DNA of 64,000 nt from Rhina ancylostomus (Eukaryota), in contig JARFYF010000060.1 of NCBI GenBank assembly GCA_030265395.1, positions 18,266,809 to 18,330,808 of the forward strand, written 5' to 3'. The notes below the pieces were generated by a model. The model had not been told where the DNA came from, made no database searches, and saw only the letters and a program-made list of their open reading frames with translations. This document shows positions 47,065-48,461 of the stretch, in pieces; position 1 is the first letter of the stretch; every line of letters begins with the position of its first letter. The translations under genes were made by a program, and so were the position numbers.

Positions 47065-47145
47065 CCAGCTGCCACTAACCCGTAGATCCGAACTTGTGTT
47101 TCAAGTATCTCACAAGCTCGTGTCTATAGGTCTGTGTCTACATGG
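47065..47145 (+). ncRNA. mir-100: microRNA precursor, miR-100 (miR-99/100 family); 5p 47077-47098, 3p ~47113-47134
   Basis: AACCCGTAGATCCGAACTTGTG equals mature miR-100-5p. The downstream CAAGCTCGTGTCTATAGGTCTG pairs with it as the star arm, and the flanks (gctgccac ... gtgtct) resemble vertebrate pre-mir-100. Confidence 0.97.
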
Positions 47146-48081
47146 TAAAGAACCAACCAGCCATGGATGTGTGTCATTTCCCAGTGGCAATTCTCAATGT
47201 GAGATACTGTAACAGTGTTTGCCCGCAGGGGGTCCCAGGGTAGGCGCTGGTGGCTACTATTTGCTCTCCAAGACCATATTTTGTATGTTGGTGTACAAAA
47301 ACTGGGTTGCAACAACATGTCTTGATGATAACCAGTAAAATAGAATGACATTATATTTGACAGGTCATTTTGCCTAACCAGTTTTGTGCTCTAGACAAAA
47401 CTCCTCAAATAAAGTTGGGCCAACTTTAAATCATGTGTTTTTTGTAGCAGGGTGGGGCGAGGATTGTGGAAGTCCCAATCCATGAGTCAGTGATGATGTG
47501 GACCTCCCAGCTGGCAACTCCCTGCCAAGATTAACCATTTCACCCAGTCTTTAACTTACCCTTCCGGAAATAGTGGCCCAAAAAGCTTATGGTTAATTCC
47601 CTTGTGATAGGGTTTTATGAATCAGTATGAAATGTGGTTTCTACCTGGGATTAGCCATGAATGGTAAAAAAAAGGAACAGATTTTAGGATAGCTATTTAG
47701 TCGGAAATGGACAATGAAAATGACTCTTGCATATTCACTGTGGCATCCACACCTTACTGATACCACGCTCGGAGAGCTGCCTGCACAATACCTCTCACTA
47801 AGCATCAGTGAGACTATTAGATTTCCTTTACGTGGGGAGCTGGGGAGGTGGGAGTGGTGAAAAAGTGATTTATTGGGTCATAACACTTGCCTGATTGAGG
47901 TGGAGACTTCACATTATTGATAGCTACTTTTGTCAATGACTCTTTTTCTTTAAAATGAGAACTGAAGTTGTTGAGTACTAACTGGTCTGTGTATGTTTGT
48001 ATGTGTGGATCTATGTGTTCATTTGGTATGTGTGTGTTCAAGGTTTTATGTGTGTGTTAGTGAGGCGAGTGCTTTGATAAG

Positions 48082-48082
<1 letters not shown>

Positions 48083-48123
<41 letters not shown>
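48083..48123. repeat. (TG)n microsatellite
   Basis: Directly visible. Confidence 0.98.
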
Positions 48124-48124
<1 letters not shown>

Positions 48125-48367
48125 TGTAACAATGTCCTGTTGTCCTGTTTATGGATTTCTCTATGTTTCTCATTCTCAGGGTGTGCATGTGTCATTTGGT
48201 CACACCTTTAGATATTGTAGGTATATAGGGTAAGTTCAGACTTTGGACCAATGCAAACTTTCCCTGACACCACCCTGAGTCATCCCTGACCTCTTCTCGC
48301 AACAACTTTCTACTCAACCCAACTTCTCTTTGAGCCTCTGATGCAGGGGTCGATGGGGCCAAGCACC

Positions 48368-48461
48368 GTGTGCACCCAGGCTGAGGTAGTAGGTTGTATA
48401 GTTTAGAATTATACCAAGGGAGATAACTGTACAACCTCCTAGCTTTCCTTGGGGCATGCAT
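48368..48461 (+). ncRNA. let-7a: microRNA precursor, let-7a (let-7a-2-like); 5p 48382-48403, 3p ~48427-48448
   Basis: TGAGGTAGTAGGTTGTATAGTT equals mature let-7a-5p. Loop TAGAATTATACCAAGGGAGATAA; star CTGTACAACCTCCTAGCTTTCC; basal stem gtgtgcacccagg / ccttggggcatgcat. Confidence 0.98.

What the first reader, a model, noticed from the sequence alone, without database searches (positions are those of the whole stretch)
47065..48461. miR-100/let-7 cluster whose star arms are intermediate between mammalian paralogues
The linkage and order miR-100 then let-7 is the ancient bilaterian cluster; the spacing here is ~1.3 kb. From recalled human sequences, the 3p arm CAAGCTCGTGTCTATAGGTCTG differs at 3 positions each from miR-100-3p, miR-99a-3p and miR-99b-3p, and its loop (TTTCAAGTATCTCA) is unlike human mir-100. 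The let-7 3p arm is one change from both let-7a-2-3p and let-7c-3p. The locus could be the MIR100HG orthologue, a slowly evolving orthologue of the miR-99b/let-7e cluster, or a fourth genome-duplication copy lost in mammals.
Basis: partly seen in the sequence, partly recalled or inferred. Interest (0 to 1): 0.7.

Follow-up and report, generated by a model that had tools for sequence, protein, structure and literature searches.

The report
Ordinary miR-100/let-7a-2/miR-125b-1 cluster orthologue
This is an ordinary, well-known trio of microRNA genes (miR-100, let-7 and, just past the window, miR-125b) lying next to the SORL1 gene as in humans, so it is very likely the fish counterpart of the human MIR100HG cluster, and its 'intermediate' passenger arms likely just keep ancestral letters that mammals later changed.

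Summary
A miR-100 hairpin (47070-47140) and a let-7 hairpin (48376-48451) lie 1.3 kb apart on the + strand, and the 3p-arm difference counts to human paralogues check out against published sequences. The novel readings are not supported. An intact miR-125b lies 20.1 kb downstream, and its 3p arm is identical to human miR-125b-1-3p. A multi-exon SORL1 starts about 210 kb further on, on the opposite strand. The chr21-type paralogue (let-7 plus miR-125b-2-like, beside HSPA13) sits on another contig. The miR-100 3p arm differs at 1 of 22 positions from teleost miR-100-2-3p. Its other 'intermediate' letters match amphioxus, and its one derived letter is shared only with miR-100. UBASH3B was not found in 700 kb upstream, so synteny is shown on one side only. 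Cluster D is already reported in elephant shark. Verdict: known MIR100HG (cluster D) orthologue, low interest. Side note: a miR-204-family hairpin 68 kb downstream has no TRPM host and is probably mis-scaffolded from TRPM1.

The parts
47070..47140 (+). pre-miR-100 hairpin (Rfam mir-10 family)
   Evidence: 66.9 bits; z -4.15, 0 of 200 shuffles as stable
47077..47098 (+). miR-100-5p, predicted guide arm; identical to hsa-miR-100-5p, 1 difference from miR-99a-5p
   Evidence: coordinates; sequences printed in PMC8499475, compared by eye
47113..47134 (+). miR-100-3p, predicted passenger arm; 1 difference from teleost miR-100-2-3p; would leave a 2-nt 3' overhang
48376..48451 (+). pre-let-7 hairpin with let-7a mature arm (48382-48403) and 3p arm at 48427-48448; let-7a-2 orthologue by position. 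The third cluster member, pre-miR-125b-1, lies outside the window, 4.5 kb past its end (G000:C60:18,335,291-18,335,352, + strand).
   Evidence: 70.8 bits; z -5.51; for miR-125b

Best explanation
The window holds a miR-100 and a let-7 hairpin 1.3 kb apart, followed 20 kb later by a miR-125b-1-type hairpin and then SORL1, and is very likely the orthologue of the human chr11q24 MIR100HG cluster (cluster D), predicted to be read as one long + strand non-coding transcript. Inferred from established knowledge, not tested here: Drosha/DGCR8 would crop the three hairpins, Dicer would cut them, and the 5p arms would be loaded on Argonaute to repress mRNAs through the conserved miR-100, let-7 and miR-125 seeds in developmental timing and differentiation. 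The 3p arms are likely passengers, constrained mainly by pairing. They look equidistant from the three human paralogues because this lineage likely kept ancestral letters while each mammalian paralogue changed 2-3 positions of its own.
For: Shown: both hairpins; miR-125b on the same strand 20,101 bp after let-7, 3p arm 22/22 identical to hsa-miR-125b-1-3p. SORL1 on the minus strand from C60:18,547,414 (FANSHY tail exon) through LDLa and YWTD-type exons to Vps10p exons up to 18,648,376; best PDB match SorLA E 6e-24 against sortilin 2e-6. SORL1 is named a neighbour of MIR100HG in PMC6057987 (passage). The same contig carries an intron-bearing HSC70, a PX exon matching mKIAA0254 at E 3e-17 (= SNX19, recalled) and a multi-exon BTG gene (BTG4 name recalled); that these are human 11q23-25 genes is recalled. 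A separate let-7 + miR-125b cluster on C74 lies 0.94 Mb from an HSP70 that ends after the ATPase domain (HSPA13 type), which fills the chr21 slot. miR-100 3p arm: 1 of 22 differences from sardine/zebrafish miR-100-2-3p (PMC7320087 table row), 2 of 21 from mouse miR-100-3p. Positions 7, 9, 10, 14, 20 and 21 match amphioxus miR-100-3p (PMC5650284 table row). Position 16 is shared only with human, mouse and teleost miR-100, not with miR-99a, miR-99b or amphioxus. Cluster D is reported in elephant shark, and cluster A is compact throughout gnathostomes (PMC3384580 section 8 part 1).
Against: UBASH3B, the upstream human neighbour, was not found: motif scans of 700 kb upstream were blank, as were Pfam scans of 140 of 434 and 65 of 171 candidate ORFs. 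A genome-wide His_Phos_1 search gave 5 matches, none on C60. The HSC70 gene lies 9.5 Mb away on the downstream side, not about 1 Mb upstream as recalled for human. The only coding hit upstream is one DNAH6 exon. The assembly shows misplaced fragments (TRPM1 exon on another contig), so gene order is not fully reliable. Cluster A was not found in this genome, so assignment by elimination is incomplete. No expression data; no precursor phylogeny was built.
Confidence: 0.95

Rival explanations
1. Slowly evolving orthologue of cluster A (miR-99b/let-7e/miR-125a, human chr19).
For: No separate cluster A was found among 2 miR-100/99 core matches and 6 let-7 matches. The 3p arm shares positions 7, 9, 10 and 20 with miR-99b-3p.
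Against: Those shared letters also match amphioxus, so they are ancestral. The third member has miR-125b-5p and miR-125b-1-3p arms, not miR-125a. The 1.3 kb and 20 kb spacings contrast with cluster A being compact throughout gnathostomes. SORL1 is the downstream neighbour.
Confidence: 0.015
2. Fourth whole-genome-duplication copy (hypothetical cluster B) lost in mammals.
For: UBASH3B is not found upstream and an unexpected DNAH6 exon and miR-204-family hairpin flank the cluster.
Against: A full SORL1 gene is adjacent, and by eye the other Vps10 exons translated (4 of the 9 matches off C60) look like sortilin or SorCS. miR-125b-1-3p is identical to human. Only two mixed clusters were seen in this genome, not four. 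PMC3384580 (section 8 part 1) finds three mixed clusters and no support for a B locus; the MirGeneDB 2.0 preprint (passages) also counts three P1 paralogues.
Confidence: 0.015
3. Orthologue of cluster C (miR-99a/let-7c/miR-125b-2, human chr21).
For: The let-7 3p arm is one change from let-7c-3p; the miR-100 3p arm shares position 20 with miR-99a-3p.
Against: The C74 cluster has a miR-125b 3p arm closest to miR-125b-2-3p (2 differences from mouse, by eye) and an HSPA13-type neighbour. The window's 5p arms are miR-100 and let-7a, not miR-99a and let-7c.
Confidence: 0.02

Closest known systems
MIR100HG cluster: mir-100, let-7a-2, mir-125b-1 (cluster D of Hertel et al. 2012, PMC3384580; human 11q24.1)
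   Same: Same three members, order and strand; miR-100-5p, let-7a-5p, miR-125b-5p and miR-125b-1-3p identical to human; SORL1 downstream on the opposite strand.
   Different: Tighter spacing (1.3 kb and 20.1 kb; human let-7 to miR-125 is 46 kb per PMC3384580, mir-100 to let-7 about 5.7 kb recalled); 3 changes in the miR-100 3p arm and 1 in the let-7 3p arm against human; UBASH3B not seen within 700 kb upstream.
Teleost miR-100-2 (sardine spi-miR-100-2-3p, query dre-miR-100-2-3p; PMC7320087)
   Same: 21 of 22 letters of the 3p arm.
   Different: Position 20, where the window keeps the letter seen in amphioxus, miR-99a and miR-99b.
MIR99AHG cluster C (mir-99a, let-7c, mir-125b-2)
   Same: Paralogue with the same layout; similar let-7 to miR-125 spacing in this genome (20.3 kb on C74).
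   Different: Different 5p letters in mammals, different miR-125b 3p arm, chr21-type neighbours; its likely copy here is on contig C74.

Membership tests
Cluster D (MIR100HG orthologue) | miR-100, let-7, miR-125 in this order on one strand | tested here: met
Cluster D (MIR100HG orthologue) | miR-125b-1-type 3p arm | tested here: met
   22 of 22 identical to hsa-miR-125b-1-3p
Cluster D (MIR100HG orthologue) | SORL1 as downstream neighbour, opposite strand | tested here: met
   no other coding gene was identified in between, but that interval was not scanned exhaustively
Cluster D (MIR100HG orthologue) | UBASH3B as upstream neighbour | tested here: inconclusive
   not found in 700 kb upstream or in 400 kb around HSC70 by recalled motifs and partial Pfam scans; UBASH3B was not located anywhere in the genome, so the searches lack a positive control
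Cluster D (MIR100HG orthologue) | Precursors group with cluster D in a gene tree | not tested
   no curated precursor set was on hand; only by-eye arm comparison with published mature sequences
Cluster D (MIR100HG orthologue) | Hosted in introns of one long non-coding transcript | not testable with these tools
   needs RNA data for this organism
Cluster A (miR-99b/let-7e/miR-125a) | Compact cluster with miR-125a-type third member | tested here: not met
   1.3 kb and 20.1 kb spacing, miR-125b arms; compactness per PMC3384580
Cluster C (miR-99a/let-7c/miR-125b-2) | miR-125b-2-type 3p arm and chr21-type neighbours | tested here: not met
   these features are seen at the C74 locus instead
Bona fide microRNA | Stable hairpin with conserved arms and 2-nt overhang geometry | tested here: met
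Bona fide microRNA | Reads from both arms with precise 5' ends | not testable with these tools
   needs small-RNA sequencing

The most novel reading that the evidence does not exclude
The cluster is the ordinary cluster D, but in this lineage it has a free-standing miR-204/211 gene 68 kb downstream on the opposite strand, outside any TRPM intron: a gnathostome copy that has left its TRPM1/TRPM3 host, against the published view (PMC13143021) that jawed vertebrates keep these microRNAs only inside TRPM1 and TRPM3.
Probability: 0.12. Interest if true: 0.45.

Novelty: already known. Interest (0 to 1): 0.08.

Why it matters
As it stands it matters little: it is one more orthologue of a textbook cluster already reported in a cartilaginous fish. 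Its small value is for polarising changes. The arms here suggest that the mammalian miR-100-3p, let-7a-2-3p and let-7c-3p differences, and possibly the let-7c mature change, are later lineage-specific substitutions. A surviving fourth copy would have filled the one missing slot of the mixed clusters after two genome duplications, but the evidence here is against that.

Tried and rejected
Genome-wide miR-125 patterns found nothing because my patterns held one base too many; they are no evidence. The Rfam lin-4 family search found nothing and rang in no control. Rfam at gathering threshold missed the miR-125b hairpin (24 bits to mir-10) and the C74 let-7, which straddles two fetched pieces. The second miR-100 core match on C56 is not a hairpin (1 of 2 matches); the reversed control pattern had more matches than the pattern, so bare pattern counts mean nothing. 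Sequencing-run look-up: no RNA holder listed; none of the 24 listed runs was laid and none is used. A codon-based coding score trained on 4318 codons did not print even the known DNAH6 exon among its top segments and was dropped. TRPM exon queries against 200 kb downstream gave no credible hit (best E 0.007 in a small search). No miR-99a was found within 100 kb on either side of the C74 let-7, a stretch with 43,038 N of 200,000. The protein atlas gave no answer for the BTG exon, and PDB holds only BTG2/Tob matches, so the BTG4 name stays recalled. A paper search for let-7, miR-100, miR-125, cluster, cartilaginous and synteny together gave 0 papers; a search for Mir-10-P2a or Let-7-P1a gave 9 papers (8 listed), none on a fourth gnathostome cluster by title or abstract start. 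Two look-ups in earlier scan findings returned nothing. The supplements of the bioRxiv preprint 10.1101/2021.09.01.458616 (paralogon tables of microRNA loci) were not seen and may bear on whether a fourth cluster is curated in any species.

Full report
Observation. The window (G000:C60:18,266,809-18,330,808; 31.2 Mb contig of a 2.2 Gb genome) contains two microRNA hairpins at Rfam's thresholds: mir-10 family at 47070-47140 and let-7 at 48376-48451, both on the + strand; the third match, mir-3596, is the antisense reading of the let-7 hairpin, a known antisense annotation of let-7a-2 in rat (PMC3384580, table passage). Both fold better than 200 of 200 shuffles. The 5p starts are 1305 bp apart. 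The organism is a non-mammalian jawed vertebrate, probably a cartilaginous fish; that is inference and was not tested.

Third member. In 200 kb fetched downstream a miR-125b hairpin lies on the same strand at C60:18,335,291, 20,101 bp after let-7 and 4.5 kb past the window end. Its 5p arm equals miR-125b-5p and its 3p arm equals hsa-miR-125b-1-3p at 22 of 22 positions; miR-125b-2-3p and miR-125a-3p are clearly different. This is the most diagnostic sequence character of the cluster.

Synteny, downstream side. The Sortilin-Vps10 family gave 11 matches genome-wide, 2 of them on C60 at 18.63 Mb, minus strand. The exon tested matches human SorLA at E 6e-24 and sortilin at 2e-6. Motif scans show LDLa repeats, YWTD-type exons and the FANSHY tail in the right order from 18,648,376 down to 18,547,414, so this is a whole SORL1 gene, tail to tail with the cluster and about 210 kb from miR-125b. 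SORL1 and UBASH3B are named as MIR100HG neighbours in PMC6057987 (passage). The contig also carries a multi-exon BTG gene at 15.76 Mb (BTG4 by recalled sequence), weak HSP70 matches at 16.58 Mb (HYOU1 is my guess), an intron-bearing HSC70 at 27.78 Mb and a PX exon at 27.66 Mb matching mKIAA0254 (SNX19, recalled). That these belong to human 11q23-25 is recalled knowledge.

Synteny, upstream side: not shown. In 700 kb upstream no UBASH3B or homeobox motif was credible. Pfam scans of 140 of 434 and 65 of 171 candidate ORFs gave only two matches, both below their cut-offs. In 400 kb around HSC70 neither UBASH3B nor a homeobox was seen (97 of 335 ORFs scanned, one PX hit). One DNAH6 exon lies at 18,132,596 (E 7e-22) with no other dynein exon found. 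These searches used recalled motifs and never located UBASH3B anywhere, so they are inconclusive. A real rearrangement and mis-scaffolding both remain possible.

Paralogues in this genome. Of 6 let-7 matches, 2 have the mixed-cluster type of loop by eye: the window's and one at C74:111,699,985. The C74 copy has a miR-125b 20,260 bp downstream whose 3p arm is closest to miR-125b-2-3p, and lies 0.94 Mb from an HSP70 whose last exon stops after the ATPase domain, the HSPA13 layout (established knowledge; human 21q11, recalled). C74 therefore likely holds cluster C. Its miR-99a was not found, in a gappy stretch. Cluster A was not seen; the assembly has gaps and withheld stretches, so absence is not shown.

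Why the star arms look intermediate. The miR-100 3p arm differs at only 1 of 22 positions from teleost miR-100-2-3p (PMC7320087, table row) and 2 of 21 from mouse miR-100-3p. Against an amphioxus miR-100-3p (PMC5650284, table row) the first 15 letters are identical and so are positions 20 and 21. Six of the seven positions at which it departs from one or another human paralogue therefore carry the outgroup letter. The seventh, position 16, is shared with human, mouse and teleost miR-100 and with neither miR-99a, miR-99b nor amphioxus, a single derived character that groups it with miR-100. For let-7, both mixed-cluster copies in this genome have the same letters at 3p positions 8 and 12, the two positions where human let-7a-2 and let-7c each differ once. 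The simplest inference is ancestral retention. These are few characters, compared by eye, with one outgroup.

Mechanism. Shown: three same-strand hairpins with conserved 5p arms and, for miR-100, a fold that leaves a 2-nt 3' overhang. Inferred from the human locus (intronic in non-coding MIR100HG; PMC3384580 section 8 part 1; PMC6057987 passages) and general microRNA biology: one long host transcript, Drosha and Dicer processing, 5p arms as guides, seed-based repression in developmental timing and differentiation. Nothing about expression was tested.

What is known. PMC3384580 (section 8 part 1 and passages) lists three mixed clusters A, C, D, reports D in elephant shark, says A is compact throughout gnathostomes and finds no support for a B locus. 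The MirGeneDB 2.0 preprint (passages) likewise counts three P1 let-7 paralogues. The preprint 10.1101/2021.09.01.458616 (passages) and PMC11701709 (passages) added nothing specific; the former's supplements were not seen.

Side finding. A mir-204-family hairpin lies at C60:18,403,788-18,403,875, minus strand (80.7 bits), 80.7% identical over 83 nt to the miR-204 inside the TRPM3-like gene on C104. Of 5 matches to the mature core only these 2 are homologous hairpins by blastn; a third, on a small contig, folds but does not align. No TRPM N-terminal domain match lies on C60 (0 of 23 matches). PMC13143021 (abstract and passages) says the gnathostome copies examined sit in TRPM1 or TRPM3 and that no further duplicate survived. 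Here the TRPM1-like gene on C66 has a 4,676-N gap exactly over the exon and intron where its copy belongs, and a matching exon turns up on C51. Two hosts, two hairpins and one gap make a misplaced miR-211 the likely answer. It is not proven: the N-free piece holding the C51 exon (about 10 kb) is larger than the estimated gap.

Verdict. Real feature, already known: the MIR100HG (cluster D) orthologue, confidence about 0.95, interest 0.08.

Noticed in passing
G000:C60:18,403,788-18,403,875 (L026:3788-3875, minus): miR-204/211-family hairpin with no TRPM exon within the 200 kb scanned; probably the TRPM1 copy misplaced by scaffolding, a free-standing copy not excluded.
   Followed up: partly
G000:C66:20,483,781-20,488,456 and C51:10,124,937-10,125,119: TRPM1-like gene has a 4,676-N gap over one exon, and a matching exon lies on another contig: evidence of misplaced fragments in this assembly.
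   Followed up: yes
G000:C60:18,132,596-18,133,006 (L081:2596-3006, +): Single DNAH6 exon 180 kb upstream of miR-100, no other dynein exon found among 140 candidate ORFs; possibly another misplaced fragment.
   Followed up: partly
G000:C74:111,699,985 and 111,720,245 (L007, L147): Second mixed cluster near an HSPA13-type gene; its let-7 has the let-7a mature sequence rather than let-7c, and no miR-99a was found within 100 kb on either side.
   Followed up: partly
G000:C60:27.65-27.79 Mb (L187, L225): HSC70 gene whose N-terminal exons appear twice in tandem in the assembly, next to an SNX19-type PX exon and 9.5 Mb from the miR cluster; no BSX or UBASH3B seen in the 400 kb around it.
   Followed up: partly
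G000:C60:18,254,372-18,254,551 (L093:4372-4551, +): Coding-looking open frame 12 kb upstream of the window with no Pfam or credible PDB match; unexplained, may be chance.
   Followed up: partly
window 2385-2927, +: Open frame that reads like a LINE reverse-transcriptase fragment (by eye).
   Followed up: no
G000:C94:20,242,557 (L009): let-7a hairpin followed 1.2 kb later by a let-7d-like arm: a let-7-only cluster.
   Followed up: no
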